Below, piece after piece: positions 11,730 to 25,765 of a stretch of 64,000 nucleotides of DNA. The translations under genes were made by a program, and so were the position numbers. The DNA comes from an uncultured Enterobacterales bacterium. GTDB taxonomy: Bacteria; Myxococcota_A; UBA796; JAFGLY01. The stretch covers positions 5,131 through 69,130 of the forward strand of contig CAZEJJ010000011.1 of assembly GCA_964512185.1 (NCBI GenBank). The letters are read 5' to 3'. The notes under the pieces are model-generated. The model was given only the letters and a program-made list of their open reading frames with translations. It did no database searches and was not told the origin of the DNA. Within the stretch, counting starts at the first letter, position 1; the number at the start of each line of letters is the position of its first letter.

Positions 11730-12842
11730 ATGCGCCACCTGGCCATCGCCGCCCTGTCCTTCGCCCTGCTGCTGGCCGGGTGCTTCTCGAAAGGCGAGAC
11801 GGGCGCGCCGCCCACCTGCGACGGCTGCCCCGGCTGCCCCGGCTGTCCGACGGACAGCGACGCCGACACCGACAGCGACGCAGACGCGGACTCCGACACC
11901 GACGCCGACGCAGACGCTGACGCGGACGCGGACACAGACGCCGACGCAGACGCCGACACGTCCTGCGACGGCGATGAGGACCACGTCTGCGACCACGCCA
12001 GCACCATCGACGAGGGCCAGGCCGGCGCCGACCCCGCCGTCCCCCTGGCCCGCTTGATCGTGCTGGGCGACTCCATCAGCCGCGGCAACGTGGCCGCCGA
12101 GGGGGCCGGCTACTTCGATCACCTGCACGCCCAGCTCGAGGCCCGCTACGGCGAGGGCTCGGTGGCGCTGATCGAGAACGCCATCGGCCAGTCCACCACG
12201 GCCACCCTCATCGGCCGGCAGCTCGACGGCGACGACGAGGTGGGCACGCCGCTGGCGTCGCTGATCGAGGACGGCTTCCCCGCCGCAGGGCACTCCATCG
12301 TGGTGATGAGCATCGGCGGCGACGACATCAACCACGCCCTCGACGACGGCGCGGACAACGAGGCGTTGGTGGGCGAGCTGGTCGATTCCGCCCAGACGAA
12401 CCTGGGCGAGATCGTCGCCTGGCTGCGGGGCACCGATCCCAGCTCCGGCCAGCCGCGCTTCCCCGACGGTGTGTCCATCTACATCATGAACATCTACGAC
12501 CCCTCCGACGGCGAGTACCAGGCCTCCACCAGCGGCTGCGAGTACCCCTACACCCCCGCCCTCGAGGGCATCTTCCCGGTCTGGCGCGAGGCCTGGTCCA
12601 GCACCGCCGCCGGGCTGGCCGCCCAGGGCTCGGGCTTCACCGCAGTCGACGCCTACGGCCACTTCCTGGGCCACGGCCACCACCACGACGACCCCGACAA
12701 TCCCCACTACCGCTCGGCCGACTCCAGCGGCTGGTTCCCCACCAACTGCACCCACCCCGCCGACAGCGGCCACGGCGAGCTGGCGCGCCTGTTCTGGGAG
12801 GCCATGGACCACGGCCACGACGACTACCAGGCGGCCCCATGA
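11730..12842 (+). CDS. SGNH/GDSL hydrolase lipoprotein
   Basis: Lipobox LLLAGC. Asp-rich linker DSDADTDSDADADSDTDADADADADADTDADADADTS. Block I IVLGDSISRGN, block III SIGGDDINHA, block V THPADSGH. Confidence 0.8.
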   Translation: MRHLAIAALSFALLLAGCFSKGETGAPPTCDGCPGCPGCPTDSDADTDSDADADSDTDADADADADADTDADADADTSCDGDEDHVCDHASTIDEGQAGADPAVPLARLIVLGDSISRGNVAAEGAGYFDHLHAQLEARYGEGSVALIENAIGQSTTATLIGRQLDGDDEVGTPLASLIEDGFPAAGHSIVVMSIGGDDINHALDDGADNEALVGELVDSAQTNLGEIVAWLRGTDPSSGQPRFPDGVSIYIMNIYDPSDGEYQASTSGCEYPYTPALEGIFPVWREAWSSTAAGLAAQGSGFTAVDAYGHFLGHGHHHDDPDNPHYRSADSSGWFPTNCTHPADSGHGELARLFWEAMDHGHDDYQAAP

Positions 12843-13459
12843 GCCCAGGAGCTGGCCTGTTCGCTCTCATCTTCCCCCTGATCTTCGGCTGCACCCCTCG
12901 ACCCGACTCGGGCGACACCACGCCGCCCCTGGACACCCAGGACACCGGCGAGCTCGAGATCATCAAGCCCGACGGCACCTACAACACGCCCGACGGCAGC
13001 GCGACCCTCACCGTCAGCGGCGGCCTGCCCACCCTCACCCTGCGTGGCGACGCCCAGAGCTTCGGCTACGGCCAGGGCTACCTGCTGGGCGGTGAGATCA
13101 TGGGCGTGCTCAACGGCTACCTGATGTACACCTTCCGCGAGGAGTCCACCCTGGACTACGAGACCGCCTGGTCCTACATGGAGCACGCGGGCTGGAGCGG
13201 CGACGACCTGGTGGAGCTGGACGCGGTGGTGGAGGGCATGAAGGACGCGCTGCCCGCCGACGCGCTGCTGGTCCGACCGGATGACCTGGGGCCACGGGAG
13301 GTCACCGTCCAGGACGTGATGCTCTTCAACACCCTGTCGGAGTGGCTCAACCTGTACCAGTGCTCATCGTTCAGCGCCTGGGGTGAGCACCCGATGCCCT
13401 GCCGGATCCCTGCGGGCCTGGGCAATGGCCTGGTGTATCTCGGCCCGTCGAGCGCTTGA
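12839..13459 (+). CDS. Lipoprotein resembling the N-terminal part of an Ntn (C45/choloylglycine-type) hydrolase, apparently 3'-truncated
   Basis: Lipobox LIFGC. SFGYGQGYLLGGEI and a candidate nucleophile context LYQCSSFSAWGE. After about 13385 the ORF tail (PMPCRIPAGLGNGLVYLGPSSA) is the antisense of another gene fragment. Confidence 0.4.
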   Translation: MSPGAGLFALIFPLIFGCTPRPDSGDTTPPLDTQDTGELEIIKPDGTYNTPDGSATLTVSGGLPTLTLRGDAQSFGYGQGYLLGGEIMGVLNGYLMYTFREESTLDYETAWSYMEHAGWSGDDLVELDAVVEGMKDALPADALLVRPDDLGPREVTVQDVMLFNTLSEWLNLYQCSSFSAWGEHPMPCRIPAGLGNGLVYLGPSSA

Positions 13460-13516
13460 ACTCCAGGGTCTGGGACTCGCCCTGGGTGATAATGCGCTCG
13501 ATGTCGGGCTGGTTCA
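13445..13516 (-). pseudogene. N-terminal fragment of an AlbA_2/Schlafen-type putative DNA-binding protein
   Basis: The minus strand reads GGGAGAGCGAGAGG-ATG then MNQPDIERIITQGESQTLEFKRS. The ESxTLEFK signature is there, but recognisable sequence is lost after about 24 codons. Confidence 0.4.
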
Positions 13517-13721
13517 TCCTCTCGCTCTCCCTTGATGACCCGTTCTATCGTGGCGCCGCGCCGCGCCATGCCAGGATCTGACCGCTTCCCTCTGCGCGGC
13601 ATGTACTTCCCACCACCTGGAGCTCTCTTGGGGCGCCACGCCCTACGCGGCCCTCGAGCTCGACGGCCACTGAGGGCGGGCTCCCTGTACACGCGGGACG
13701 TCTCTTGTACTGTTCGCCGGT

Positions 13722-13841
13722 TGTCAGTCCTTCATATCCCCGCTGAGCTACGGAGACCCGCACGGCTGCATCATCGAGGCCGCGGGTACGCTCGACTGCT
13801 GGGGAGAAGACCGCTTCGGCCAGGTCTCGGACATCCCCTGA
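13722..13841 (+). pseudogene. RCC1-like repeat fragment
   Basis: CQSFISPLSYGDPHGCIIEAAGTLDCWGEDRFGQVSDIP followed by a stop. It has the GTLxCWGxxxxGQ repeat signature, no start codon and no partner repeats. Confidence 0.3.
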
Positions 13842-13901
13842 CGGCCGTCGAGGGGAGCCACCGCCCCGAGGGTGCTCGGGGAGACCTCGTAGCCGGCGTC
13901 G

Positions 13902-14066
13902 ATGGCCGAGGACGCGGTCCCCGCCCCTCCCACCCGCAGCTTCGTGCTGCTCGCCGGCACCCTGGACCTGCGGCGGGTGCTGGAGGAGTTCGCCCACTTC
14001 TGGCGCGAGCGCGGCGAGCCCATCGACTTCGTGGAGGCGCGGCTGCACATCGAGGTGGCCGACTGA
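13902..14066 (+). pseudogene. 54-codon fragment of the ATPase/PD-(D/E)XK family
   Basis: MAEDAVPAPPTRSFVLLAGTLDLRRVLEEFAHFWRERG aligns to MAEDALPTPPTRSFVLPDGTLDMARVLEEFAAFWREHG in the middle of the 16925-18505 paralog. An in-frame TAG precedes it and it diverges afterwards. Confidence 0.6.
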
Positions 14067-14149
14067 TCCGCGGCTCCACCACAGGCTGGGAGGGCGACCG
14101 GCAGGACGGGCTATGATGGAGCCCGCAGCCCGCCCCTTGGAGCCCGCCC

Positions 14150-15715
14150 ATGCGCTACTTCAACACAACCGGCCCCTGCGAGGCCGAGCGGCACTACATG
14201 CTGCCGCCACAGCAGCGCATGCCGGCCCTGCTGCCCTTCGTCGAGCAGCAGCTCTACTACGTGGTGCACGCCGCCCGGCAGACCGGCAAGAGCACCGCCA
14301 TGATCGCCTTCGCCCGCCGCCTGCGCGAGCAGGGCCACGCTGCGGTCTACGCCAGCCTCGAGGAGAGCCAGGGGCTAGACGAGATCGAGCCGGCCGAGGC
14401 CGTGTGGCTCAGCTCCCTGGCCCGCAGGGCCATGCAGCAGCTCCCGGATGTCGAGGTGCCACCGCCGGCGTCGGTCCAAGATGATGCCACCGGCGCTCGC
14501 CTCGGCCACTGGCTCACCCTGCTGGCCCAGGCCGCCGCCCCCCGCCCCGTGGTGGTCATCCTCGACGAGGCCGACGTGGTCCGGGGCCTGCCCGTGGTCA
14601 ACCTGCTGCGCCAGCTCCGGAACGGCTTCATCGGCAGGGGCGTGGGCACCTTCCCCGTCTCCGTCGCCCTGGTGGGCATGCGCGATCTGCGCGACTACCT
14701 CGCCCACGCAAGAGACGGCGCCCCCGTCAACCCCGGCAGCCCCTTCAACATCAAGTCCGCCTCCATCACCCTGCGCGGCTTCACCCAGGACGAGGTGGGC
14801 GAGCTGTACGCCCAGCACAGCGCAGCCACCGGCCAGCCCTTCACGCCCGACGCCGTGGCCCGCGCCTTCTGGTGGACCCAGGGCCAGCCCTACATGGTCA
14901 ACGCCCTGGCCCGCATCGCCGTCATGGAGCTGGTCACGGATACCACCCAGCCCGTCACCGCCGCTCACATCGACCAGAGCAAGGAGCGCCTGATCCAGGC
15001 CCGCACCACCCACCTCGACAGCCTGGCTGAGCGGCTGGCCGAGCCCAGGGTGGCCCGGGTGGTCCAGCCCGTCATCCTGGGCGACAACCCCCTGGCCATC
15101 CCCTACGACCACGACGACTTCCAGTACGCCATCGACCTGGGCCTCATCGTGCGCGGTCCCCAGGGCGCCCAGCCCGCCAACCCTATCTACCGCGAGGTCC
15201 TGGCCCGGCAGGTGGGCCTGCGAATCCAGGAGTCCCTCAACCAGCCCTGGTGGCCCTGGCGCACCCCCGACGGGCGCCTGGACTTTCCCGCCCTGATCGA
15301 CGCCTTCCTCGACTGGTGGCGCGACAACGAGGGCGCGGTCAAGGCCCACGGCAACAAGAACTACCCCGAGGCCCTGCCCCACCTGGCCCTGATGGCCTTC
15401 CTGCAGCGGGTGGTCAACAGCGGCGGCCACGTCACGCGCGAGTACGCCGCCGGCCGGGGCGCCGTGGACCTGGTGGTCCACTACGGGTCCGACCGCTTCG
15501 TGCTCGAGATCAAGCGCGTCTTCACCGGCGGTCACACCCCCGAGCGCGTGCGGGAAGAAGGCGTGGCCCAGCTCGGGCGCTACCTGGACGAGCTGGGCGA
15601 GCGTGAAGGCTGGCTGGTGATCTTCGACCAGCGAGACGGCCAGGCCTGGGGCGACCGGCTGTGGCGAGAAGAGCGCCAGGTCGACGGCAGGACCATCAGG
15701 CTGCTGGGGGGGTGA
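14150..15715 (+). CDS. P-loop ATPase fused to a C-terminal PD-(D/E)XK nuclease-like domain (copy 1, motifs intact)
   Basis: N-terminus MRYFNTTGPCEAERHYMLPP. Walker A ARQTGKST, Walker B VVVILDEAD. C-terminus GRGAVDLVV (Asp codon 15467-15469) ... FVLEIKRV (Glu 15506-15508, Lys 15512-15514). Confidence 0.8.
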   Translation: MRYFNTTGPCEAERHYMLPPQQRMPALLPFVEQQLYYVVHAARQTGKSTAMIAFARRLREQGHAAVYASLEESQGLDEIEPAEAVWLSSLARRAMQQLPDVEVPPPASVQDDATGARLGHWLTLLAQAAAPRPVVVILDEADVVRGLPVVNLLRQLRNGFIGRGVGTFPVSVALVGMRDLRDYLAHARDGAPVNPGSPFNIKSASITLRGFTQDEVGELYAQHSAATGQPFTPDAVARAFWWTQGQPYMVNALARIAVMELVTDTTQPVTAAHIDQSKERLIQARTTHLDSLAERLAEPRVARVVQPVILGDNPLAIPYDHDDFQYAIDLGLIVRGPQGAQPANPIYREVLARQVGLRIQESLNQPWWPWRTPDGRLDFPALIDAFLDWWRDNEGAVKAHGNKNYPEALPHLALMAFLQRVVNSGGHVTREYAAGRGAVDLVVHYGSDRFVLEIKRVFTGGHTPERVREEGVAQLGRYLDELGEREGWLVIFDQRDGQAWGDRLWREERQVDGRTIRLLGG

Positions 15716-15750
15716 CGCAGCTGGGCGGCCAGCGGCAGCGTCGGCCGCCG

Positions 15751-16185
15751 CTACTCCCGCAGCAGGGCCTTGACCATGGCTTGGGCGGACACGCAATCGG
15801 CGGCGCTGACCTTGACGTTTCCGTCGGGCACGGTGAGGAGGGCGGCTCCCTGCTCGAGGCGGCGGGACTCCTCGGCGCTCGGATCGCTGGCCGGCAGCTG
15901 CACCACGGAGGTGGCGGCTTTTTAGTGGTTGCTGTGCTGCAAGCTGCAGTGGGTGGCGTAGAAGGGGTGGCTGCCGCGCTCCTGCTCCACCTCGCAATGA
16001 GCGGGTCCCGTGGTCCAGCCCGCGGGCGCGACGGCGTCGTCGGTGCCCAGGATCTCCACCAGGTTGGAGTGGCCGCTGAGCGTGTCGGTGGCGTAGACCC
16101 CCCAGGCCGTGCCCTCGGTGGAGATGGAGACGAGGTTGCGCGAGACCTCGCCGCCGGTGGTGACGGCATGGGGAGCACGAGCTCG
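15751..16185 (-). pseudogene. Decayed ORF downstream of the HTH gene, with an in-frame TAA and no start codon
   Basis: A GC3-rich frame reads ...TTGGEVSRNLVSISTEGTAWGVYATDTLSGHSNLVEILGTDDAVAPAGWTTGPAHCEVEQERGSHPFYATHCSLQHSNH-TAA(15922-15924)-KAATSVVQLPASDPSAEESRRLEQGAALLTVPDGNVKVSAADCVSAQAMVKALLRE. I did not recognise a family. Confidence 0.35.
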
Positions 16186-16187
16186 GA

Positions 16188-16667
16188 TCAGTAGTCCAGG
16201 CCCATTTCCTGGACCTCTCTGGTCAGCTCATCCAGGATGGCCTTGCGCCTGGCCTGGTCCCTCCTGCGATACTCCAGCACGTCGGACAGGGACACGCGGC
16301 GGTGCGTGCCCACCTTGCGGAAGGGGATCTCGCCGCGGTCCAGCAGCTTGATGAGGTGCGGGCGCGACACGTTGATGAGGTCAGCGGCCTGCTGGGTGGT
16401 GATCTCGGCCCTGACCGGCACCACCGCCACCGCGTCCCCGTTCGCCATCAGCGTCAGTATTCGCGCCAGCAGGTCGACGACGGGCGCAGGGATGGAGACC
16501 ATCCGCTCGCTCCCCTCTGGGTGCAGCCGGACCACGCTGCCCCGCTCGAGGTCGCGGAGCAGACGCAGGGCGTCCTCTGCCTCCATGGCGAGGGCGTCAT
16601 CGGACAGGTCCAGGGCCGTGCTGGGCATGGGTATCTCCAAGGGCATGGCAGCCGCCATTCGCAACAA
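16188..16667 (-). CDS. Excisionase-family helix-turn-helix DNA-binding protein (antitoxin-like)
   Basis: ITTQQAADLINVSRPHLIKLLDRGEIPFRKVGTHRRVSLSDVLEYRRRDQARRKAILDELT. The true start may be one of the internal ATGs (16658 or later). Confidence 0.75.
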   Translation of the reverse strand: MLRMAAAMPLEIPMPSTALDLSDDALAMEAEDALRLLRDLERGSVVRLHPEGSERMVSIPAPVVDLLARILTLMANGDAVAVVPVRAEITTQQAADLINVSRPHLIKLLDRGEIPFRKVGTHRRVSLSDVLEYRRRDQARRKAILDELTREVQEMGLDY

Positions 16668-16758
16668 CGCAATGTATACGGATCATTCGTAACGGCGAAG
16701 GTCCATGGGCCGAGTAGCCCACCTCACCCGCACATGGACCGATGGACGACCGCAGTCC

Positions 16759-16880
16759 TTCGGCGCCGGGATGCACGCCGGGGTCGGCGTCGTCGCAGTC
16801 CCCGTCGGCCTCGCTGTAGCCGTCGCCGTCGGCGTCGATGGTGTCGGTGTCGGGCGCCGACCCGGGGGCGCTCGCGAAGC
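16759..16880 (-). pseudogene. Fragment of a MopE-type metal-binding-repeat protein
   Basis: DTDTIDADGDGYSEADGDCDDADPGVHPGAE matches the repeats of the 61699-62595 protein (DGDGY...GDCDD.D..V.PGA.E). There is a single repeat and it is truncated on both sides. Confidence 0.4.
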
Positions 16881-16924
16881 CGCGTGGGCTGTGATGCCTT
16901 GTCGATCCCCACCGGAGCCTGGTC

Positions 16925-18505
16925 ATGCGCCACTTCAACACCGCCGGTGTCTGCCTGCCCGAGCTGCACTACATGCTGCCGCCCGAGCTGCGCCTGCCCG
17001 GGGTCCGGGAGCTGTTGGCCCAGCGGGCGTACTTCGTGGTGCACGCCCCACGTCAGACGGGCAAGACCACCACCCTGCGCGCGCTGTGCCGGACCTTGAC
17101 GGCCGAGGGTGAATACGCCGCGCTGCACTTCTCCTGCGAGGGGGGGCAGGCCTACCCGGAGGATCCCGGCGCCGCCGAGCGGGTGGTGTGGGACAGCATC
17201 GTCGACGAGGCTCGGGACCAGCTCGGCACCGAGCTGCGCCCACCCGCCGTCGGGGTGGCGACCGCTCCGGGGAGCTTCCTGCTGACGAGCATCACGGCCT
17301 GGTGTCGCGCGTGCCCGCGCCCGCTGGTACTAGTCTTCGACGAGATCGACGCGCTGCTGGGCCGCGGCATGATCACGGTGCTGCGGCAGCTCAGGGCGGG
17401 GCACCCCAAGCGAGGGACCGCGTTCCCCTCCTCGGTGATCCTCTGCGGCCTGCGGGACGTGCGCGACTACAAGGCGGCGTCCGGGGGCGACGCCAGCCGG
17501 CTGGGCACGGCCAGCCCCTTCAACGTGCTGGTGGAGTCCATCAGCCTGGGCAACTTCACCGCCTCGGAGGTGGCGGACCTGTGCGGCCAGCACAGCGCGG
17601 CCACGGGCCAGCCCTTCACCCCTGCGGCGCTGGAGCGGGCCTACGAGCTGACCGGGGGCCAGCCCTGGCTGGTGTGCGCCCTCGCACGCGAGGTGATCGA
17701 CAAGCTGCGCGTCCCGGTGTCCGAGCCCATCACGGTGCACCACCTGGACCGGGCCAAGGAGCGCCTGGTCCTGGCGCGGGCCACCCACCTGGACTCCCTG
17801 GTGGACAAGCTGCACGAGGGCAGGGTGCGCCGAGTGCTCGGGCCGCTGATGGCAGGGGACTATGTCGAGCTGGCCGATACCTACGACGACGACATCCAGT
17901 ACGTAGCGGACCTGGGGCTCATCACCCGCAGGCCGGTGCGGGTGTCCAACTCCATCTACCGCGAGGTCATGGTCCGCGTGCTGGCGGCCATGGCCGAGGA
18001 CGCCCTGCCCACCCCCCCCACCCGCAGCTTCGTCCTGCCCGACGGCACCTTGGACATGGCGCGGGTGCTCGAGGAGTTCGCGGCCTTCTGGCGCGAGCAC
18101 GGCGACATCCTGGCCGACGGCATGAGCTACCACGAGGTCGCGCCGCAGCTGGTGATCATGGCCTGGTTCCAGCGCGTCGTGAACAGCGGCGGCTACGTGG
18201 ATCGCGAGTACGGCATCGGCCGTGGCCGCATCGGCCTGCTGCTCCGCTGGCCGCACGCTGGTCCCGGCGGCCAGCGCGCCTGGCAGCGCGAGGCTGTCGA
18301 GCTGGAGGTCTGGGCCGCGGGCCGGCCCGACCCGCTGCCCAAGGGCCTGGCGCAGCTCGACGCCTACCTGGAGCGGCCCGGCCTGGACGCGGGCGTGCTG
18401 GTGGTCTTCGACCGCCGGCCCGAGGCGCCGGGGATCGACGAGCGGACCGTCTTCTCCCGGGCCGTGACCCCCACGGGTCGCCAGGTGACCCTGCTGCGGG
18501 CCTGA
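16925..18505 (+). CDS. P-loop ATPase fused to a degenerate PD-(D/E)XK-like domain (copy 2)
   Basis: MRHFNTAGVCLPELHYMLPP. Walker A PRQTGKTT, Walker B LVLVFDEID. The C-terminus GRGRIGLLL (Gly codon 18233-18235 replaces the Asp) ... AVELEVWA has no Lys. Confidence 0.8.
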   Translation: MRHFNTAGVCLPELHYMLPPELRLPGVRELLAQRAYFVVHAPRQTGKTTTLRALCRTLTAEGEYAALHFSCEGGQAYPEDPGAAERVVWDSIVDEARDQLGTELRPPAVGVATAPGSFLLTSITAWCRACPRPLVLVFDEIDALLGRGMITVLRQLRAGHPKRGTAFPSSVILCGLRDVRDYKAASGGDASRLGTASPFNVLVESISLGNFTASEVADLCGQHSAATGQPFTPAALERAYELTGGQPWLVCALAREVIDKLRVPVSEPITVHHLDRAKERLVLARATHLDSLVDKLHEGRVRRVLGPLMAGDYVELADTYDDDIQYVADLGLITRRPVRVSNSIYREVMVRVLAAMAEDALPTPPTRSFVLPDGTLDMARVLEEFAAFWREHGDILADGMSYHEVAPQLVIMAWFQRVVNSGGYVDREYGIGRGRIGLLLRWPHAGPGGQRAWQREAVELEVWAAGRPDPLPKGLAQLDAYLERPGLDAGVLVVFDRRPEAPGIDERTVFSRAVTPTGRQVTLLRA

Positions 18506-18531
18506 GGGCGCGAGGCCTGAAGCGCGCTCCG

Positions 18532-18657
18532 GGGTTCGCGGCCGCGTCGGTAGATGGCGCGGGCGACGTCAACGGCGACAGCCTGGACGACATCGTGATC
18601 GGCGCGCCAGAGTACGACAGCGCCGCCTCACGGCGGAGCTTCCCCGACGTCTGCTAG
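18532..18657 (+). pseudogene. FG-GAP repeat fragment
   Basis: GFAAASVDGAGDVNGDSLDDIVIGAPEYDSAAS followed by unrelated residues and a stop. It is a single repeat with no start. Confidence 0.45.
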
Positions 18658-18681
18658 GCGGAGTCGGATCGAGGCGCGGGC

Positions 18682-19659
18682 TCACTGCGCCTGCGCGGCT
18701 CCGACCTTCCAGTGGATCCCCGCCACCGCGCTGCTGGAGTTGTCGTGCGGCATGGTGGCCGAGCCGGCCTTGGAGGTGCCGAAGTAGACGTACAGCCAGT
18801 CGCCTGGCTGCCAGCCTGCCCACGCCGTGGCGGGGACGGTGAAATCGCCGTCGTTGTCGGCGACACAGCTGACCTTCTCCAGGATCTCGGAGGTCCGTGC
18901 ATCGATCCGCGCGATGTAGATCAGCGCGTGGTCGGAGTCGGTGATGGTCCAGCTGAACTCCAGGTCCTGCAGCGGCCAGGCGGGCACAGTGCTCCCATCC
19001 AGCTCGGGGCTGATGAGGGTGAAGCTCGGGGGCGTCACGACAGAATCGGGCACGTACAGGTCCGGGAGGCCCGAGGCGCCGCTGACCTGCAGCTCGTAGC
19101 TGCTGTCCCAGAGGAAGCTGAGGGAGTCGAGGTTCGCCGCGAAGTAGGGGTGCTCGTCGTCGGGGCTCAGATCGACCCAGGTCCCCCCGTCGGTCTCCAG
19201 GGTGACGTATGGTTCGCCCAGGTCCATCCCGGTGCTGGTGTCGACCAGGAAGCCGTCGCTGCTGCAGGTCTCGACGCTGGGCGAGAAGAACTCCCAGTAC
19301 TGCGCCGCAGCCGGCTGCTGGAGAAACCAGAGCTGGGCGAGCCCATAGTCATCCACCGGCTCGGTCCAGTATGACCCGAGGATCTCGTACCACTGGGACG
19401 CCCCCAGCACGCCGGTCAGGCCGGACTCGTCGTCGAAGTCCAGGTACTCGAAGGCGCTGCTGGCCAGGGCCGAGCCTGCCGCGGCGGTCAGCTCGACATC
19501 GACGGTTCCGACCGTCTCGCTCGCGGGTGTGAGCAGCTCGACCTGCTCGGCTGTGGATGACAGCAGCTCGGCCTGCTGGTCGCCGAAGGTCACGCTGACC
19601 AGGTCGTCGAAGCCCTGGCCGGTCAGGACCACCAGGCTGCTGCCGCCCCGCGGGCCCAT
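18682..19659 (-). CDS. IPT/TIG-domain surface protein. The N-terminus is probably displaced by a frameshift (see findings).
   Basis: GGSSLVVLTGQGFDDLVSVTFGDQQAELLSSTAEQVELLTPASETVGTVDVELT. In the same frame upstream of the annotated Met lies a lipobox, RSRHLALLPALACGC, with no start codon. Confidence 0.6.
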   Translation of the reverse strand: MGPRGGSSLVVLTGQGFDDLVSVTFGDQQAELLSSTAEQVELLTPASETVGTVDVELTAAAGSALASSAFEYLDFDDESGLTGVLGASQWYEILGSYWTEPVDDYGLAQLWFLQQPAAAQYWEFFSPSVETCSSDGFLVDTSTGMDLGEPYVTLETDGGTWVDLSPDDEHPYFAANLDSLSFLWDSSYELQVSGASGLPDLYVPDSVVTPPSFTLISPELDGSTVPAWPLQDLEFSWTITDSDHALIYIARIDARTSEILEKVSCVADNDGDFTVPATAWAGWQPGDWLYVYFGTSKAGSATMPHDNSSSAVAGIHWKVGAAQAQ

Positions 19660-20115
19660 GGAGGGGGCGAGGCTCTCGATGCCGACGACCGGGCTCGTCT
19701 CACCGCTGTCGGTGCTGTCCGCCTGGGTGTCGCCCAGGCTGTCGCGGGAGTCGCCGTTGCCGGGGGTGAGCGCCAGCTCGCAGCCGCAGGCGAGGGCCGG
19801 GAGCAGGGCGAGGTGGCGCGAACGATGGTGGAAGGGGTGTGCATCCTGACCTGGTCCTCTCTCCGGATGGGGGGCTGGTTCATGCCGGCGCCCGTATATC
19901 TCGCGGGGCCGCGCCGCTCAACGGGGCTCGCAGGGCGCGCTCGCGGACGGTGTCATGTCGCCGGCCGTGGCGGCGTGGGAGTCAGCCCTGGCGATCGTGA
20001 GGGCTCACGAGCAGCACGGCCGCGGGGTGCTCCCGGACGAGCGTGGGACGTAACCGCGAGCCCCGCACCCGGTTGATACCATGAACCCCCACCCTCTCCA
20101 CCATGAGGTGCCCCT

Positions 20116-22296
20116 ATGCGCTCAATCCACGCCCTGCCCGGCATGCTCCTGCCCTTCGCGCTGCAGGCCTGCTCCTGCTCGCTCCCGGGTGAGACGGGGG
20201 ACAGCGCCCCCGACACCAGCGGGCAGGTGGAGATCCTGCGAGACAGCTACGGCGTCCCGCACATCTACGGCGGCTCGGTGGAGGCGGCGATGTACGGCTT
20301 CGGCTACGCCCAGGCCGAGGATCACCTCTCCTTCATGCTGACCCACTACCTGGCCGCCGACGGGCGCCTGTGCACGGCTCTCGAGGCTGGCGACGAGGCC
20401 CTGGCCCTGGCCGGCTACGGCGACCCCGAGGGCAACGACCTGCTGGCGCTGCTGTTCCGGTTCCGCGAGGTGGTCGACGAGCAGTGGGACGATCTCGACC
20501 AGCACGACGATCCCTCCTGGAGCTTCACGGGCCGCGAGCTGTTGACCGCCTTCGCCGCGGGTGTGAACGCCTACATGGCGGAGCATCCTGAGCGGGTGCC
20601 GGACTGGTGGAGCGGCCAGGTGGAACCCCAGGCCGTGCTGGCCTTCGTGCGGGCCACCCTGCTGGCCTACCAGGTCTCCATCATCACTCAGAAGGCCAGC
20701 CTGGCCGGCGAGGTGATCTCCCAGGCCTCCAACGAGTGGGTCGTGGGGCCCGGCAGCACCGCGGACGACGCCACCTACGTCCAGAGCGACCCCCACCTGG
20801 CGTTCAGCGGCGGCACGCTGTGGTACGAGGCCCACCTGGCCGGCGGGCCGCTGGACGTGGCCGGGGCCACCATGTACGGCGTGCCCTTCATCGCCATGGG
20901 GCACAACCGGTCCCTGGCCTTCACCGAGACCTCCAACTCCATGGACAACGCCGACCTGTTCCAGGTCACGGTCTCGGCCACCGACCCCACCCGCTATGTC
21001 TACGGTGACCAGGAGCTGCCCTTCACCTTCTCCGAGGTCACCCGCGAGCTGGCGGGCGGGGGCGAGCGCAGCTTCCGGCTCGCCTGGACCCACCACGGGC
21101 CGGTGGTGGATCCGCTGGACAGCCACGACTTCGCCGCCGGCGAGCAGCTGCTGGTGGGCGCCGTCACCATGTTGGAGCAGGCGGGCGGGTTCGCGCAGTT
21201 CGTGGCGATGGACCTGGCGCCGGACGTGGACGCCTGGGTCGAGGCCATGCAGGCGCTGCAGATCCAGCGCTGGAACTTCGTGGTCGGCGACACCCAGGGC
21301 GACATCTTCTTCGTCAACAACTCGCGCCACCCGGCGCGCGACGACGAGGTGGACTGGTCCGGCGCGGTGGACGGCTCCGATCCCGAGCTGGACTGGACCA
21401 CAGCCGAGCCCTGGGCCTTCGACGAGCTGGCCTGGGCCCGTGCTGATGGGGGCTACTTCCAGTGCAACAACTCCAGCCCGGGCTGGATCACGGCCGACTA
21501 CGGGGAGCACATCGATGAGAGCGCCTTCCCCGGCCACTACTTCACCCACGACAAGCTGGGCGCGCGCGCCGAGCACGCCCTGCGCGAGCTGTCCGCGCGC
21601 TCCGACTGGACCTTCGAGGAGCTGCAGGAGCTGTCCATGTCCACCTATGTGCTGCCGGCCGCGGGCTGGATCCCGCTCTTCGAGCAGGCCTGGGAGGACT
21701 ACGGCGAGCAGGTGGCCGATCCGGCGGCTGTGGTGGAGGGCGTGGGCATCCTGCAGGCCTGGGACTACCAGGCCGACGTCGACAGCACCGGCATGACCCT
21801 GTACAACCGCTGGATGGACCTGGCCAGCGTCTACACCGGCACCGCCGATCCCCCCGACTCGGTCACGGAGGAGGAGGCCGTCTTCGGGCTGGACCTGCTG
21901 GGCCAGGCGGTCGGCGACCTGCAGCAGGGCTACGGCAGCGCCGAGGTGCCGTGGGGCGAGGTGCACCGCATCCGGCGCGGCGAGGTCGACCTGCCCATCG
22001 CCGGCGGGACCTCGGGCAACCCGTCGCTGTTCATGGCCACGGCCACGGAGGAGGTGGACGGCGTCGGCTATGTGGGCAAGGGCAGCTCCTACATGCTGCT
22101 GACCCGGCTCGGCGCCGACGGTGTCGTCGAGGCGGTCTCCGTCAAGCCCTGGGGCAACTCCGAGGATCCCGAGTCGCCCCACTACAGCGACCTCACCGAG
22201 CTGTACGCCGAGCAGCGGTACAAGGAGTTCTGGTACGACCGCCAGGACGTCGAGCAGCACCTGGAGTCCACCACGGTGCTGGAGTACCTGCCGTGA
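20116..22296 (+). CDS. Penicillin acylase family Ntn hydrolase (AHL-acylase-like) lipoprotein
   Basis: Lipobox FALQAC. ILRDSYGVPHIYGGSVEAAMYGFGYAQAEDH. Beta-subunit nucleophile context ISQASNEWVVGP. Confidence 0.85.
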   Translation: MRSIHALPGMLLPFALQACSCSLPGETGDSAPDTSGQVEILRDSYGVPHIYGGSVEAAMYGFGYAQAEDHLSFMLTHYLAADGRLCTALEAGDEALALAGYGDPEGNDLLALLFRFREVVDEQWDDLDQHDDPSWSFTGRELLTAFAAGVNAYMAEHPERVPDWWSGQVEPQAVLAFVRATLLAYQVSIITQKASLAGEVISQASNEWVVGPGSTADDATYVQSDPHLAFSGGTLWYEAHLAGGPLDVAGATMYGVPFIAMGHNRSLAFTETSNSMDNADLFQVTVSATDPTRYVYGDQELPFTFSEVTRELAGGGERSFRLAWTHHGPVVDPLDSHDFAAGEQLLVGAVTMLEQAGGFAQFVAMDLAPDVDAWVEAMQALQIQRWNFVVGDTQGDIFFVNNSRHPARDDEVDWSGAVDGSDPELDWTTAEPWAFDELAWARADGGYFQCNNSSPGWITADYGEHIDESAFPGHYFTHDKLGARAEHALRELSARSDWTFEELQELSMSTYVLPAAGWIPLFEQAWEDYGEQVADPAAVVEGVGILQAWDYQADVDSTGMTLYNRWMDLASVYTGTADPPDSVTEEEAVFGLDLLGQAVGDLQQGYGSAEVPWGEVHRIRRGEVDLPIAGGTSGNPSLFMATATEEVDGVGYVGKGSSYMLLTRLGADGVVEAVSVKPWGNSEDPESPHYSDLTELYAEQRYKEFWYDRQDVEQHLESTTVLEYLP

Positions 22297-22323
22297 GCCC
22301 CGCAGCAGGCGAGAGGAGGAGCA

Positions 22324-24324
22324 ATGACCCACAGCCCACTCGAGCACAGGGCAGACCGGCCCCGACCCCTGCCGGTCGCCACGCTGGGCATCGCCCTGCT
22401 CCTGCTGCCCATGTCCACCGCGGCGGCGGCTACGCTCTACGTGGACCAGGCCAGCGGCGACGACAGCCAGAGCGGGGCCTCCCCCGAGCAGGCCGTCGCC
22501 AGCCTGGCGCGCGGCGCCGAGCTGCTGCAGGCCGGGGACCAGCTGATCGTGGGGCCCGGCACCTACTACGAGCAGCCCGTCTTCTCGGGGCACGGTGGCC
22601 AGGTCTGGATCCGCGCCGAGCCCATGGGAGAGGCCACCATCAGCGGCATGTGGGAACAAGCCGCCGAGGGCCTGGTGGGCTGGCGCGACGAGGGCGACGG
22701 GAGCTGGTCGGCGCCGCACGGCCAGGCCGTGTTCGGGGCCTACGAGGATGCCTTCCTGTTCCGATTCGAGACCGTCGATGACCTCCTCGCGGCGCGGGCC
22801 GGCAGCATCCACACGCCTGGCTGGGGCTTCGCCCACGAGGACGGCCGGATCTACCTGGTGCTGCCGGGCGGCGAGGACCCCAACGGCCGCCCCGTCAAGC
22901 TCTCCTCGGCCTACTGGGGCGAGGACGGGCAGCTGGACGCGGTGGTGTGGATCCACGACGCTCCCGAGGCGATCCTGGAGGGCTTCCGCGTCGAGGGCGC
23001 CGGCACCCTCGGGGTCTGGATCGAGACGGACAGCCCGGGGCCCACCGTCCGCAACACGGTGTTCTCCTACTGCGTCTACGGGCTCGCCCTGCCCCAGCGG
23101 AGCCTGGTGGAGTGGGTGGAGTACAGCTACCCGGGCTTCTACGACTTCGCCGAAGAGGTGCTGCAGCTCAACGGCGACATCGACCGGGTCTACTCGCTGG
23201 TGAAGGAGTACCACGACACCGTCGTTTTGGAGGGCGGGCTGGCCCTGGGGCACGGCTGGACCGGGGACACCATCGAGGACTGCGAGTTCCGCTACAACTT
23301 CCTGCACGAGGCCTTCGATGGCGAGAAGCTCGGCTTCTTCGACGCCTCCAGCTCCCACCACAACGCCTACCTGTACAACTACGACAACCACGTGGAGCTG
23401 GAGGGCTGGTACGGCAACCCGGGGGCCGACCTGCACCTGCACCACAACCTGATGCTGGCCTGCCCGATGGGCCCCATCTCCCACCAGGGCGACGACATCG
23501 TCGGACCCCAGTACGTGTACAACAACGTGGTCTGGGAGCTCGACACCGACCACGGCCACACCTGGACCCAGCTCAAGACGGACGCCCCCAACGCCACCGG
23601 GGGCCTGCACTACTTCCACAACCTGTTCTGGGCCGGCCACACCACCATGTTCTGGGAGGACGCCGACAAGCTGTGGCTGCGCAACAACATCCTGGTGTTC
23701 ACGGACGAGTACAGCGACGAGCCGGCCAGCTTTGACAGCGACTACAACCTGCTGGTGAACATCGCGGACGAGCCCTGGCTGCGGGGTGCGAGCGGCTACT
23801 GGGTGGGGGACGATCCGGGCGACCTGGAGCTGCAGGACCCGGCATCCCTGGACTTCCGCCCGACGAAGGACAGCCCCGGGCTGAACCTCGGCATCGAGAT
23901 CCCTGGCTTCAACGAGGCTGACCCCGACATCGGCCCCTTCGAGCTGGGGCAGGGCTGGGACGGAGACTGGCCCCGGCCGATGGAGACCGTGTTCGACTGC
24001 AGCGTCCCGGAGCGCTGGCAGGGCGAGGATCCCGACCTGGCCTGCGATGACGAGGAGGGGGACACCGGGCTGGACAGCGCCAGCCCCGGCGACTGCGAGG
24101 CTCCCCACGACAGCGATGGGCCCGGCGACAGCCAGGCTCCCAGCGACAGCGGCGACTCGCCGGACAGCGGCGGTCCTCGGGACAGCGGCGTGGCGACGGA
24201 CGACGAGACGGGCTGCGGCTGCTCGGCCAGGAGAGCCCGCTCCCTGCTGGCCACGGGCTTGACGCTGGCCGCCCTGGGCTGCTGCGCCGGGGCCGCCAGG
24301 AGGCGAGGCCGCCGCCACGGGTGA
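22324..24324 (+). CDS. Secreted right-handed beta-helix protein (polysaccharide-lyase-like guess) with a MYXO-CTERM-like tail
   Basis: Signal peptide ending TAAAATLYVDQASGDDSQSGASPEQAVASL. C-terminus DDETGCGCSARRARSLLATGLTLAALGCCAGAARRRGRRHG. Confidence 0.55.
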   Translation: MTHSPLEHRADRPRPLPVATLGIALLLLPMSTAAAATLYVDQASGDDSQSGASPEQAVASLARGAELLQAGDQLIVGPGTYYEQPVFSGHGGQVWIRAEPMGEATISGMWEQAAEGLVGWRDEGDGSWSAPHGQAVFGAYEDAFLFRFETVDDLLAARAGSIHTPGWGFAHEDGRIYLVLPGGEDPNGRPVKLSSAYWGEDGQLDAVVWIHDAPEAILEGFRVEGAGTLGVWIETDSPGPTVRNTVFSYCVYGLALPQRSLVEWVEYSYPGFYDFAEEVLQLNGDIDRVYSLVKEYHDTVVLEGGLALGHGWTGDTIEDCEFRYNFLHEAFDGEKLGFFDASSSHHNAYLYNYDNHVELEGWYGNPGADLHLHHNLMLACPMGPISHQGDDIVGPQYVYNNVVWELDTDHGHTWTQLKTDAPNATGGLHYFHNLFWAGHTTMFWEDADKLWLRNNILVFTDEYSDEPASFDSDYNLLVNIADEPWLRGASGYWVGDDPGDLELQDPASLDFRPTKDSPGLNLGIEIPGFNEADPDIGPFELGQGWDGDWPRPMETVFDCSVPERWQGEDPDLACDDEEGDTGLDSASPGDCEAPHDSDGPGDSQAPSDSGDSPDSGGPRDSGVATDDETGCGCSARRARSLLATGLTLAALGCCAGAARRRGRRHG

Positions 24325-24478
24325 TGCCCCGCGCTGGACCCGGTCGTCGGGCCGGCCGGCGCGGAGAGCTGGCGCAGAGTCCCTGAGCGACAGGTGGTCC
24401 CGGATAGGCCAGCCCTGATTCCCCGGAGGGCGGGGCCCGGAAAACGGAATACACGGCCGGCGCCACCCCGGAGATTCC

Positions 24479-25765
24479 ATGGAAACCGTCGTCGACCCCA
24501 GGAAGCAGCGCCTCTGGCAGTACCGCGTCTACACCCTGCTGTGGACCGGCTACGCCAGCTACTACCTGTGCCGGCTCAACTTCGCTGTAGCCCAGCCTGC
24601 CATCCTCGAGGCCTACCCCAGCTGGTCGGCGGCCAAGGTCGGCGGCATCCCCTCGGTCTACGCGGCCTTCTACGCCATCGGCCAGTTCATCAACGGGCAG
24701 CTGGCCGACCGCTTCGGCCCGCGCAAGATGATGACCACGGCCCTGTCCATCGCCGTGCTCTGCAACCTGGGCATGTCCATGGCCGACTCCTACACCGCCA
24801 TGCTCGTGCTGTGGGCCATCAACGGCTACGCCCAGAGCGCGGGCTGGACCCTGGTGGTGCAGACCGCGGCCAACTGGACCAAGGTGGAGCGCCGGGGCGC
24901 GGTGCTGGGCATCATCTCCACCTGCTACGCGGTGGGCAACGTGCTGGCCTGGCTGCTGGCCGGGTTCCTGGTGGACAGCATCGGCTGGCGCGCGGCCTTC
25001 GCCGTGCCCGCCTTCGTCGCCCTGCCGGTGGCCATCGCCATCGGGGTGTTCCTGCGCAACGATCCTCGCGACGCTGGCCTGCCCCGCATCCGCGACGACA
25101 TCGACGAGGCCGACGAGGTGGACGAGAGCGGCGCCAGGCGCCCCGCCATCGGCACCCTGGCCATGCTCAAGATGACGCTGGCCAACCCCATCCTCTGGGT
25201 GCTGGCACTGGCCTTCTTCTGCAACAATTCCGTGCGCTATGCCTTCATGAACTGGGCGGTGCAGTACATGGCCGATTTCCATGGCCGCTCCATCGCGGGC
25301 TCGGCCATGATGGCCATCGCCCTCCCTCTCATCGGCGCCGTGGGGGCTGTGTCCGCCGGCTGGATCTCCGACACGGTGTTCGGAAAACGGCGGGCACCGG
25401 TGTGCGCCATCTGCCTGTTCCTGCTGGCCATCCTGTGCGTGGCCTTCGTGCAGATTCCCCAGGGCCAGTGGGTCATCGCCACGGTGATGCTGGGGGTGGC
25501 GGGTTTTCTGATCTACGGCCCCGACATGCTCATGACCGGTGCGGCCTCCATCGACTTCTCCCACCCTCGGGCCGCTGCTGCGGCCACCGGCTTCACGATG
25601 GCCACGGGCGCTGCCGGCTCGATCTTTTCTGGAGCAGGCGTGGGCTGGCTGAAGGACAGCACCGGAGGTGAGTGGGACCTGGTGTTCTACGTGCTGGCGG
25701 GCCTGTCCCTGGTGCCGGCCCTGCTGATGGTCACCATCTGGAACGCGAAGCCGAAGGGTTCGTAG
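24479..25765 (+). CDS. MFS transporter, organophosphate:Pi antiporter (GlpT/UhpC)-like
   Basis: Twelve-TM-like hydrophobicity. LCRLNFAVAQP, GQFINGQLADRFGPRKMM. Confidence 0.8.
   Translation: METVVDPRKQRLWQYRVYTLLWTGYASYYLCRLNFAVAQPAILEAYPSWSAAKVGGIPSVYAAFYAIGQFINGQLADRFGPRKMMTTALSIAVLCNLGMSMADSYTAMLVLWAINGYAQSAGWTLVVQTAANWTKVERRGAVLGIISTCYAVGNVLAWLLAGFLVDSIGWRAAFAVPAFVALPVAIAIGVFLRNDPRDAGLPRIRDDIDEADEVDESGARRPAIGTLAMLKMTLANPILWVLALAFFCNNSVRYAFMNWAVQYMADFHGRSIAGSAMMAIALPLIGAVGAVSAGWISDTVFGKRRAPVCAICLFLLAILCVAFVQIPQGQWVIATVMLGVAGFLIYGPDMLMTGAASIDFSHPRAAAAATGFTMATGAAGSIFSGAGVGWLKDSTGGEWDLVFYVLAGLSLVPALLMVTIWNAKPKGS

What the first reader, a model, noticed from the sequence alone, without database searches (positions are those of the whole stretch)
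13385..18680. A 5-kb island of ATPase-nuclease paralogs embedded in a graveyard of broken genes
Two intact lipoprotein genes flank this island. Inside it are:
- two full-length paralogs and one 54-codon fragment of the same P-loop ATPase + PD-(D/E)XK fusion;
- an excisionase-type HTH gene;
- at least five unrelated gene fragments: an AlbA_2-like N-terminus, an RCC1 repeat, a MopE repeat, an FG-GAP repeat, and a decayed ORF with an in-frame TAA.

The neighbouring Ntn-hydrolase-like gene also loses homology at about 13385. GC drops locally at 13480-13760, 15915-15935 and 16660-16720. Each ATPase-nuclease copy is bracketed by pieces of typical host secreted-protein genes. The fragment sits only 84 nt upstream of copy 1. 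That pattern looks like repeated insertion followed by recombination between copies. This gene content (ATPase + nuclease, AlbA_2, antitoxin-type HTH) is what one sees in defence or selfish-element hot spots. I do not recognise the module as any named system.
Basis: partly seen in the sequence, partly recalled or inferred. Interest (0 to 1): 0.72.

Follow-up and report, generated by a model that had tools for sequence, protein, structure and literature searches.

The report
Decayed array of ATPase-nuclease genes
A 5.3-kb stretch of a marine high-GC bacterial genome holds two intact genes, one 126-base remnant of an unnamed ATP-driven nuclease family and a patchwork of broken genes; elsewhere this family forms tandem arrays that swap two hypervariable segments, as immune-type genes do, but no function has been tested.

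Summary
Window 13391-18680 contains two full-length paralogs (521 and 526 aa, 44% identical). Each has an N-terminal AAA+ ATPase, a winged helix and a C-terminal PD-(D/E)XK nuclease whose best structural match is McrC. A 126-nt internal fragment of a third copy is also present. So are an HTH_17 gene, short FG-GAP, RCC1 and MopE gene pieces, and a 440-nt pseudogene with an in-frame TAA. The island replaced the 3' 60% of an Ntn-hydrolase (AAT/C45) lipoprotein gene.

New findings:
- The family is very large (more than 7000 hits, more than 600 species across many phyla), always a solo gene, and has no specific model in Pfam, NCBIfam or PADLOC.
- It is absent from phage and viral collections.
- It sits in same-strand clusters in 9 of 80 loci.
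- Tandem copies are mosaics of a near-identical scaffold and two swapped hypervariable blocks.
- Copy 2 is the only one of 315 members lacking the catalytic Asp and Lys.

My reading: this is a decaying, co-oriented array of independently acquired stand-alone ATP-dependent nucleases, probably a defence-type family. Defence function is inferred, not shown. There are no integrase, tRNA, terminal repeats or known-system hits, and no related genome exists for the empty-site test.

The parts
12839..13391 (+). 5' ~40% of an AAT/C45 Ntn-hydrolase lipoprotein gene, truncated. The ORF reads on into foreign sequence to 13459.
   Evidence: Homologues are ~420-470 aa and match query residues ~44-184 only. 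They carry Pfam AAT in the part missing here. The coding-phase signal changes at ~13400.
13437..13517 (-). Short N-terminal gene fragment (MNQPDIERIITQGESQTLEFKRS...), possibly AlbA_2-type. Identity unverified.
   Evidence: Coding-phase signal on the minus strand at 13400-13560. No HMM or BLAST hit.
13518..13720 (.). Non-coding, lower-GC spacer (~0.63-0.68), presumably the former upstream region of the minus-strand fragment.
   Evidence: No codon-position periodicity. GC profile.
13746..13823 (+). RCC1-type repeat fragment ending in a stop at 13839-13841.
   Evidence: Pfam RCC1_2, E=1.7e-4, 21.7 bits against a cut-off of 22. Translation.
13892..14017 (+). Internal fragment (residues 354-394) of a third ATPase-nuclease gene of the copy-2 subfamily, inside ORF 13902-14066.
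   Evidence: 84% nt identity to 17980-18105. 75.6% aa identity to copy 2 and 68-73% to other subfamily members.
14150..15715 (+). Copy 1: a 521-aa AAA+ / winged-helix / PD-(D/E)XK nuclease with all catalytic residues present.
   Evidence: Model pLDDT 78. Foldseek top matches are 2qen and 2fna. C-terminal domain model and McrC/Hjc matches.
15751..16190 (-). Pseudogene: the 3' part of an unidentified gene. It has no start codon and an in-frame TAA at 15922-15924.
   Evidence: One coding phase throughout, third-position GC 0.90-1.00. Translation. No Pfam hit.
16188..16667 (-). Intact HTH_17 / excisionase-family DNA-binding gene (146-159 aa depending on the start chosen).
   Evidence: HTH_17 at 7.7e-12. 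TIGR01764 at 2.5e-13. PADLOC mad1 at 2.3e-6, on the HTH only.
16762..16850 (-). MopE-type Asp-rich metal-binding repeat fragment. Homology is lost after ...PGAEG.
   Evidence: Pfam Cu-binding_MopE, E=1.8e-3, matching only profile positions 1-13 of 30. Similar repeats occur at ~29300 and ~62200 in the window.
16925..18505 (+). Copy 2: a 526-aa paralog, full length with an intact ATPase motif set. The nuclease Asp is replaced by Gly (D437G) and the Lys by Glu (K461E).
   Evidence: It is the only member with these changes among 237 database homologues and 78 genome-locus members. dN/dS against its nearest relative is 0.27.
18556..18618 (+). FG-GAP repeat fragment. Its frame is open from 18506 and ends at the stop at 18655-18657.
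   Evidence: Pfam FG-GAP, E=8.2e-7, 29.2 bits against a cut-off of 22.1.
18682..19659 (-). Right flank: IPT/TIG-domain gene. Its lipoprotein signal (LLPALACGC, ~19770-19800) has no in-frame start codon.
   Evidence: Pfam TIG at 8.7e-7. Translations and sequence.

Best explanation
The interval is a decaying, co-oriented cluster of three separately derived genes of one large unnamed family. Its members are single-chain ATP-dependent nucleases. Each has an N-terminal AAA+ module of the Orc1/Cdc6 / archaeal 'Arch_ATPase' type, a winged helix, and a C-terminal McrC/Hjc-like PD-(D/E)XK nuclease.

The cluster, together with an HTH gene and short pieces of at least five other genes, replaced the 3' 60% of an Ntn-hydrolase lipoprotein gene. 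This happened through several illegitimate joins (about eight or nine junctions in 5.3 kb), not through site-specific integration.

The three copies differ in state:
- Copy 1 looks functional.
- Copy 2 keeps its ATPase but has lost the nuclease Asp and Lys.
- The third copy is reduced to 126 nt.

Inferred mechanism of the family: ATP-dependent binding or assembly on DNA, followed by cleavage by the C-terminal nuclease. This is a stand-alone logic resembling type IV restriction by McrBC. Target choice would be set by two hypervariable segments that are exchanged between paralogs. One is a helical insert between strand beta-2 and Walker B, at the position of the initiator-specific motif of Orc1/Cdc6. 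The other is the winged-helix/linker region.

Shown: architecture, fold, distribution, clustering, mosaicism, and the loss of catalytic residues in copy 2. Inferred: DNA as the target, the role of the variable blocks, and a defence function.
For: Architecture and fold:
- AAA_22 passes its cut-off in both copies; AAA_16 and AAA_35 hit below theirs.
- Walker A GK[TS] and Walker B DE are invariant in 237 members.
- The full-length model (pLDDT 78) best matches 2qen and 2fna (archaeal AAA+ with winged helix), then RuvB, RFC and Orc1/Cdc6 2qby.
- The C-terminal model (pLDDT 87) has alpha-beta-beta-beta-alpha-beta topology. Its top matches are McrC 7vsr_M and 6ut6_G, then Hjc, AF1548 and Bax1.

Separate origin of the three copies:
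- Copy 1 and copy 2 are 44% identical, yet each has 79-81% identical relatives elsewhere.
- DNA homology between copy 2 and its nearest relative is 83% over 16913-18525. It covers only the ORF plus 12 nt upstream and 20 nt downstream, in a wholly different gene context.

Conflict-type behaviour of the family:
- More than 7000 and more than 3900 hits for the two copies.
- More than 600 species genomes, including Cyanobacteria, Spirochaetes, Bacteroidales, Planctomycetes, Actinomycetes and Myxococcota.
- No conserved neighbour.
- Multiple copies on Pseudanabaena megaplasmids, one beside DISARM and NACHT genes and one beside an IS1.
- None in 50,697 phage records or 2.9 million viral contigs.
- Same-strand clusters in 9 of 80 loci.
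- In Pseudanabaena minima, three tandem copies are 96-100% nt identical in the scaffold but 46-73% in two blocks, and copy C combines block 1 of A with block 2 of B. The same regions are the family-wide variability maxima.

Decay:
- Copy 2 is the only one of 237 plus 78 members with D>G and K>E.
- Fragments or frameshifted copies also occur at other loci (L010, L074, L024).

The related DUF1703 architecture is reported to expand and to recombine among paralogs (PMC6387759).
Against: - No PADLOC model matches the ATPases (best E=0.0012 to candidate PDC-S01, over the P-loop region only).
- Most flanking genes at other loci are ordinary metabolic genes.
- Comparing defence hits in adjacent ORFs with distant ORFs gave no clear enrichment.
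- Copy 2 shows ordinary purifying selection (dN/dS 0.27) and no rate acceleration. It may therefore have a retained non-nuclease role rather than be decaying.
- The mapping of variable block 1 to the Orc1/Cdc6 DNA-contacting motif rests on secondary-structure position, not on a residue-level superposition.
- No experiment or related genome supports the order of events at this locus.
Confidence: 0.55

Rival explanations
1. The ATPase-nuclease gene is itself a selfish mobile unit. In this view it is homing-like or transposon-like, inserts into genes, and leaves broken genes around it.
For: - Homology with the nearest relative ends 12 nt before the start codon and 20 nt after the stop codon.
- Intact copies abut gene fragments both here and at L001.
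- The family is multi-copy on several replicons in Pseudanabaena.
Against: - There are no terminal inverted or direct repeats, target-site duplications, transposase or integrase.
- The fragments on the two sides of a copy are on different strands and from different gene types, so they are not halves of one interrupted gene.
- Copies within one genome are diverged or mosaic, not near-identical as in active elements.
- At several loci the gene sits between apparently intact genes.
Confidence: 0.12
2. This is an ordinary variable or decaying stretch of a large high-GC genome. The ATPase-nuclease genes are accessory DNA-metabolism genes (repair or recombination) with no role in conflict, and the fragments are ordinary pseudogene debris.
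For: - Neighbours at other loci are mostly housekeeping genes.
- There are no known-defence hits.
- Selection is purifying.
- Another decayed gene lies beside the nearest relative, which suggests these genomes carry much debris.
Against: - The distribution across phyla is patchy, with 60-65% identity between Actinomycetes and Myxococcota.
- Tandem arrays carry swapped hypervariable blocks on a 96-100% identical scaffold. That is atypical of repair genes.
- There are about nine junctions in 5.3 kb.
Confidence: 0.2
3. The HTH_17 gene and an ATPase-nuclease form a toxin-antitoxin or abortive-infection pair.
For: HTH_17 / excisionase-type proteins often serve as antitoxins. The gene lies between the two copies and gives a weak PADLOC mad1 hit.
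Against: - The HTH gene is on the opposite strand.
- No recurrent neighbour of any kind exists at 80 loci, and HTH_17 is not among the frequent flanking families.
- The HTH gene is itself bracketed by unrelated fragments.
Confidence: 0.04
4. The interval is an assembly chimera of a metagenome bin.
For: The sequence comes from a metagenome. One scaffold (L108) has an N gap and poly-C/G junk inside copy 2.
Against: Three assemblies give the same sequence. L004 and L005 differ from the window only at four positions (24347-25547), all outside the island. L108 is 100% identical over 9940 nt that cover the island up to its scaffold gap at ~18005, beyond which 19 mismatches (17934-17997, inside copy 2) are attributed to gap-edge junk. 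The coding phase is continuous inside each element.
Confidence: 0.02

Closest known systems
DUF1703 proteins (Pfam AAA-ATPase_like PF09820 + PDDEXK_9 PF08011)
   Same: - Same two-part architecture: N-terminal AAA-type ATPase, C-terminal PD-(D/E)XK.
- Similar size of ~520 aa.
- Unconserved genomic context, multi-copy expansions, and recombination between paralogs (PMC6387759; PMC3424549).
- Some homologues of copy 1 touch PDDEXK_9 at 24-25.7 bits against a cut-off of 25.5.
   Different: - The window proteins hit neither PF09820 nor PF08011.
- The N-terminal module is AAA_22/AAA_35-like, with a conserved FNTxGxC motif.
- The function of DUF1703 is itself unknown.
Archaeal/bacterial 'Arch_ATPase' DEXX-box AAA+ proteins (PaBY2304, 2qen; SSO1545, 2fna), often fused to DUF234
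   Same: They are the best structural matches for the first ~350 residues, E 2e-11 and 4e-10, TM normalised to target 0.66-0.67. DUF234 is listed as a PD-(D/E)XK family attached to such ATPases (PMC3424549).
   Different: No PF01637 or DUF234 HMM hit. Sequence identity is 15-16%. These proteins are also functionally uncharacterised.
McrBC type IV restriction system
   Same: An AAA+ motor is coupled to a PD-(D/E)XK nuclease. McrC is the top structural match of the C-terminal domain, E 7e-4 and 1.6e-3. There is no cognate methyltransferase.
   Different: - McrBC is two proteins, whereas this is one chain.
- McrB is a GTP-specific AAA+ of another clade with an N-terminal DNA-reader domain.
- No McrB or McrC HMM hits were found.
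Type I restriction specificity subunits (HsdS) with two swappable target-recognition domains
   Same: Two discrete hypervariable blocks sit in a conserved scaffold and are reassorted between adjacent paralogs.
   Different: This is an analogy of evolutionary pattern only. There is no sequence or fold relationship. No invertase or inverted repeats are present, and no effect of the blocks on specificity has been demonstrated.

Membership tests
AAA+ / P-loop ATPase | Walker A GxxxxGK[ST], Walker B hhhhDE, and a family HMM score above its cut-off | tested here: met
   GKS/GKT and DE are invariant in 237 members. AAA_22 scores 32.9 and 30.3 bits against a cut-off of 27.
Orc1/Cdc6 / Arch_ATPase-like AAA+ with winged helix | Fold similarity of ATPase, lid and winged helix; a family HMM (PF01637) hit | tested here: inconclusive
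   Fold is met: 2qen and 2fna are top matches, 2qby_A is at rank 32. PF01637 is not among hits at E<=0.1.
PD-(D/E)XK nuclease superfamily | alpha-beta-beta-beta-alpha-beta core fold | tested here: met
   The model (pLDDT 87) has that strand and helix order. Top PDB matches are McrC, Hjc, AF1548, Bax1, SfsA and MGME1.
PD-(D/E)XK nuclease superfamily | Catalytic D ... (D/E)xK residues | tested here: met
   Copy 1 has D440, E453 and K455. The family has D in 235/237, E in 237/237 and K in 236/237. Not met in copy 2, which has G437 and E461.
DUF1703 (PF09820 + PF08011) | Both Pfam models above their gathering score | tested here: not met
   Neither model is hit by the window proteins at E<=0.1. 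PF08011 scores 17-25.7 bits against 25.5 in homologues, and PF09820 is never hit.
McrBC | Separate McrB (GTPase AAA+) and McrC subunits encoded together | tested here: not met
   The protein is a single polypeptide. No McrB or McrC family hits in Pfam, NCBIfam or PADLOC. Only the nuclease fold matches McrC.
Any named anti-phage system in PADLOC-DB v2 | Significant match to a system protein model | tested here: not met
   The best hits are E=0.0012 (PDC-S01) and 0.02-0.06 (mad8), all over the P-loop region.
Defence-island resident | Enrichment of defence genes next to family members relative to background | tested here: inconclusive
   Flanking ORFs hit DndC, IetA, LmuB, bSEFIR, mad3 and PDC models. 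Distant control ORFs also hit many models. Only top-25 summaries were available, so no statistics could be computed.
Integrative genomic island / transposon / integron cassette | Integrase or transposase, tRNA or att site, and terminal repeats or attC | tested here: not met
   No such genes within +/-10 kb. No tRNA in 64 kb. No bounding direct or inverted repeats. attC was not specifically modelled.
Toxin-antitoxin pair with HTH_17 antitoxin | Conserved adjacency and co-orientation of the two genes | tested here: not met
   The genes are on opposite strands. No recurrent neighbour at 80 loci.
AlbA_2 (fragment at 13437-13517) | Match to PF04326 | tested here: not met
   No hit at E<=10. Only the ESxTLEFK-like motif, recalled from knowledge, supports the call.

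The most novel reading that the evidence does not exclude
The family is an unrecognised, very widespread stand-alone immune nuclease. In this reading an Orc1/Cdc6-like AAA+ and winged helix read DNA through two exchangeable hypervariable modules, and a fused McrC-like nuclease cuts. Tandem arrays diversify specificity by shuffling the modules, as HsdS genes do. The window's island would then be a burnt-out array of this kind, and its nuclease-dead copy 2 might be retained as a sensor or partner. A bolder corollary is that breaks made or attracted by such arrays, repaired by end joining with captured filler DNA, generate the surrounding patchwork of gene fragments.
Probability: 0.35. Interest if true: 0.75.

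Novelty: new variant of a known kind. Interest (0 to 1): 0.55.

Why it matters
If the family is a defence nuclease, it would add a very common single-gene system (thousands of members in cyanobacteria, myxobacteria, actinomycetes, spirochaetes and Bacteroidales) that current defence-finding tools miss. It would also be a second example, after type I specificity subunits, of target choice diversified by swapping two modules between neighbouring paralogs.

The island itself is a compact record of how such genes are gained, inactivated and eroded. It holds one intact copy, one with a dead nuclease site, and one 126-nt stub.

If the family is not defensive, the finding reduces to an ordinary pseudogene-rich variable locus.

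Tried and rejected
Empty-site and synteny test:
- A metagenome scan with the flanking amidase found only 27-34% identical full-length relatives, plus two short 44-65% matches.
- The truncated 206-aa gene has no homologue above ~41% identity except itself.
- The test is therefore impossible with these data.

An apparent 187-aa variant of copy 2 (P0333) looked like a recombinant at the fragment/copy-2 repeat. It turned out to be an artefact of a 10-N scaffold gap with poly-C/G junk.

Conserved partners: all-against-all clustering of ORFs at 80 loci and Pfam/PADLOC summaries of 146 flanking ORFs found none. A control set of distant ORFs made the defence-enrichment question inconclusive.

Source copies of the fragments elsewhere in the window: none were found, only repeat-type similarity.

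AlbA_2 verification failed.

The 206-aa ORF is not a paralog of the nearby penicillin amidase.

The following searches found nothing:
- PDB sequence searches.
- Rfam, promoter/terminator and tRNA scans.

Literature searches for AAA_35 and nSTAND returned noise.

The integron-cassette idea was dropped for lack of an integrase; no attC model was run.

Full report
**1. What is in the sequence**

The window is ~71% GC. The same contig occurs in three metagenome assemblies of one marine sample series. L004 and L005 differ from the window only at four positions, all outside the island. L108 is identical across the island up to a scaffold gap inside copy 2.

Between 12839 and 19659 the elements are as follows.

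- **12839-13459(+)** is a lipoprotein ORF of 206 aa. Its homologues are ~420-470 aa and match only its residues ~44-184. They carry the AAT/C45 Ntn-hydrolase domain in the part that is missing here. Codon-position GC periodicity switches at the same place.
- **13437-13517(-)** is a short N-terminal fragment. Its AlbA_2 identity I could not verify.
- **13518-13720** is ~200 nt with no coding signal.
- **13746-13823(+)** is an RCC1-type repeat piece (E=1.7e-4).
- **13892-14017(+)** is a 126-nt fragment, 84% nt and 75.6% aa identical to residues 354-394 of copy 2.
- **14150-15715(+)** is copy 1.
- **15751-16190(-)** is a 440-nt stretch in a single coding phase. It has no start codon and an in-frame TAA.
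- **16188-16667(-)** is an HTH_17 / excisionase-type gene.
- **16762-16850(-)** is a MopE repeat piece (E=1.8e-3).
- **16925-18505(+)** is copy 2.
- **18556-18618(+)** is an FG-GAP piece (E=8e-7).
- **18682-19659(-)** is the convergent IPT/TIG gene.

That makes roughly eight or nine junctions between unrelated sequences in 5.3 kb. No direct or inverted repeats bound the interval. The window has no tRNA. No integrase or transposase lies within 10 kb, and there is no Rfam, promoter or terminator signal.

**2. The two proteins**

The copies are 44% identical.

- Both pass AAA_22 and touch AAA_16 and AAA_35.
- Walker A and Walker B are invariant across 237 homologues, as is an N-terminal FNTxGxC motif.
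- An AlphaFold model of copy 1 (pLDDT 78) best matches the archaeal AAA+ proteins PaBY2304 and SSO1545. RuvB, RFC and Orc1/Cdc6 follow.
- The last ~125 residues were modelled separately (pLDDT 87). They fold as alpha-beta-beta-beta-alpha-beta and best match McrC, Hjc resolvases, AF1548 and Bax1.
- Together with the conserved D...ExK motif and weak PDDEXK_9, Mrr_cat, NucS_C and PDDEXK_3 hits in homologues, this confirms the predicted PD-(D/E)XK domain.

**3. The family**

Each copy has thousands of homologues. The hits include Cyanobacteria, Spirochaetes, Bacteroidales, Planctomycetes, Streptomyces, Frankia, Sorangium and Acidobacteriota.

Sources call these proteins only 'ATP-binding protein' or 'AAA family ATPase'. 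NCBIfam and PADLOC have no model for them.

- At 80 loci no neighbour recurs.
- Copies occur on cyanobacterial megaplasmids, once beside DISARM and NACHT genes and once beside an IS1.
- None occurs in phage genomes or viral contigs.
- In 9 of 80 loci there are two or three copies or a fragment nearby, always on the same strand.
- Those co-located copies are each other's closest relatives, at 61-89% identity.

The tandem copies are mosaics. In Pseudanabaena minima the three copies are 96-100% nt identical over the scaffold. They are only 46-73% identical in two blocks (nt ~180-480 and ~900-1200). Copy C carries block 1 of A and block 2 of B. These blocks are also the family-wide variability maxima.

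In the model, block 1 is the helical insert between strand beta-2 and Walker B, and block 2 is the winged helix and following linker. From established knowledge of Orc1/Cdc6-DNA complexes, those are the positions of the two DNA-contacting elements. This mapping is my inference and was not tested here.

**4. How the window's island differs**

The two copies belong to different subfamilies. Each has 79-81% identical relatives in unrelated contexts.

DNA homology between copy 2 and its nearest relative (83%) covers only the ORF plus 12 nt upstream and 20 nt downstream. The fragment is about as distant from copy 2 (84% nt) as that foreign relative is. Three lineages have therefore accumulated here, all co-oriented.

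Copy 2 is the only one of 237 plus 78 members in which the nuclease Asp and Lys are replaced, by Gly and Glu. Its dN/dS against relatives is 0.27 and its branch is not accelerated. It is either recently disabled or retained for a nuclease-independent role.

Eroded copies also occur elsewhere: an N-terminal 60-aa stub in L010, a frameshifted copy in L074, and a truncated match in L024.

**5. Interpretation**

The best-supported reading is a decaying cluster of separately acquired stand-alone ATP-dependent nucleases. It sits in a locus that has undergone repeated illegitimate joins and has destroyed the Ntn-hydrolase gene.

The family's behaviour is what conflict (defence) genes show:
- a patchy distribution across phyla
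- solo genes
- arrays
- module shuffling on a conserved scaffold
- absence from viruses

The related DUF1703 architecture has been reported to expand and recombine in a similar way, with function unknown (PMC6387759; PMC3424549).

Defence is not demonstrated. There are no known-system hits, most neighbours elsewhere are ordinary genes, and my crude flank-versus-distant comparison was inconclusive.

The rival readings are less well supported, for these reasons:
- Self-mobile gene: the element has no terminal repeats and no recombinase.
- Ordinary accessory repair gene: mosaic arrays of this kind are atypical of repair genes.
- HTH-based toxin-antitoxin pair: the HTH gene is not a conserved partner.
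- Assembly artefact: the interval agrees across three assemblies.

**6. Verdict**

- The island itself is modestly interesting.
- The family-level pattern (an unnamed, very large AAA+/PD-(D/E)XK family with two swappable hypervariable blocks) is the part worth following up experimentally.

Noticed in passing
window 19660-19850 (minus strand): The IPT/TIG gene's lipoprotein signal (RSRHLALLPALACGC) lies upstream of the called start, in the same frame, but with no ATG/GTG/TTG. The nearest ATG (19846) is one base out of frame across a C-run. This is either a real frameshift or a homopolymer error at the fifth codon.
   Followed up: partly
L001:9479-9886: Next to the closest relative of copy 2 lies a 135-aa Cys/Met-metabolism PLP-enzyme ORF. 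It joins the N-terminal ~73 residues directly to the C-terminal ~60, so it is an in-frame internally deleted pseudogene.
   Followed up: partly
L059:9992-14762 (Pseudanabaena minima chromosome): Three head-to-tail family genes are separated by 78 and 28 nt. They show a clean two-block mosaic: C combines block 1 of A with block 2 of B, and the scaffold is 96-100% nt identical.
   Followed up: yes
L010:6696-6881; L074:9995-11543; L024:10001-11140: Other genomes also carry eroded family members: a 60-aa N-terminal stub 82 nt after a full copy, a frameshifted copy, and a truncated match.
   Followed up: partly
window 14150-14180 and 16925-16955; family-wide: The N-terminal motif (R/K)xFNTxGxC precedes the ATPase. 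Asn5 occurs in 232/237 members and Cys10 in 231/237. Its role is unknown.
   Followed up: no
homologues P0130, P0148, P0236: The precomputed annotation lists Pfam PF28130 on three homologues. This entry is absent from the Pfam copy I could search, so its description is unknown. It may be a newer family covering part of these proteins.
   Followed up: no
window 14375-15997(-) and 20122-24480(-): Very long antisense ORFs (540 and 1452 aa) overlap real genes. They are typical high-GC artefacts, not genes.
   Followed up: partly
window 24347, 24350, 25535, 25547: These are the only differences between the window and two other assemblies over ~21 kb. There is strain-level microdiversity outside the island and none inside it.
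   Followed up: partly
L108:9941-10010: A scaffold gap (10 N) flanked by poly-C/G junk lies inside copy 2. It produced a spurious 187-aa protein that stands as the 90% cluster representative in the protein collection.
   Followed up: yes
window 14139-14152, 16914-16927; L001:9989-10003: All three genes share the same ribosome-binding/start context, GGAGCC(C/T)G(C/G)(C/T)CATGCGC, although the two window paralogs are only 44% identical.
   Followed up: no
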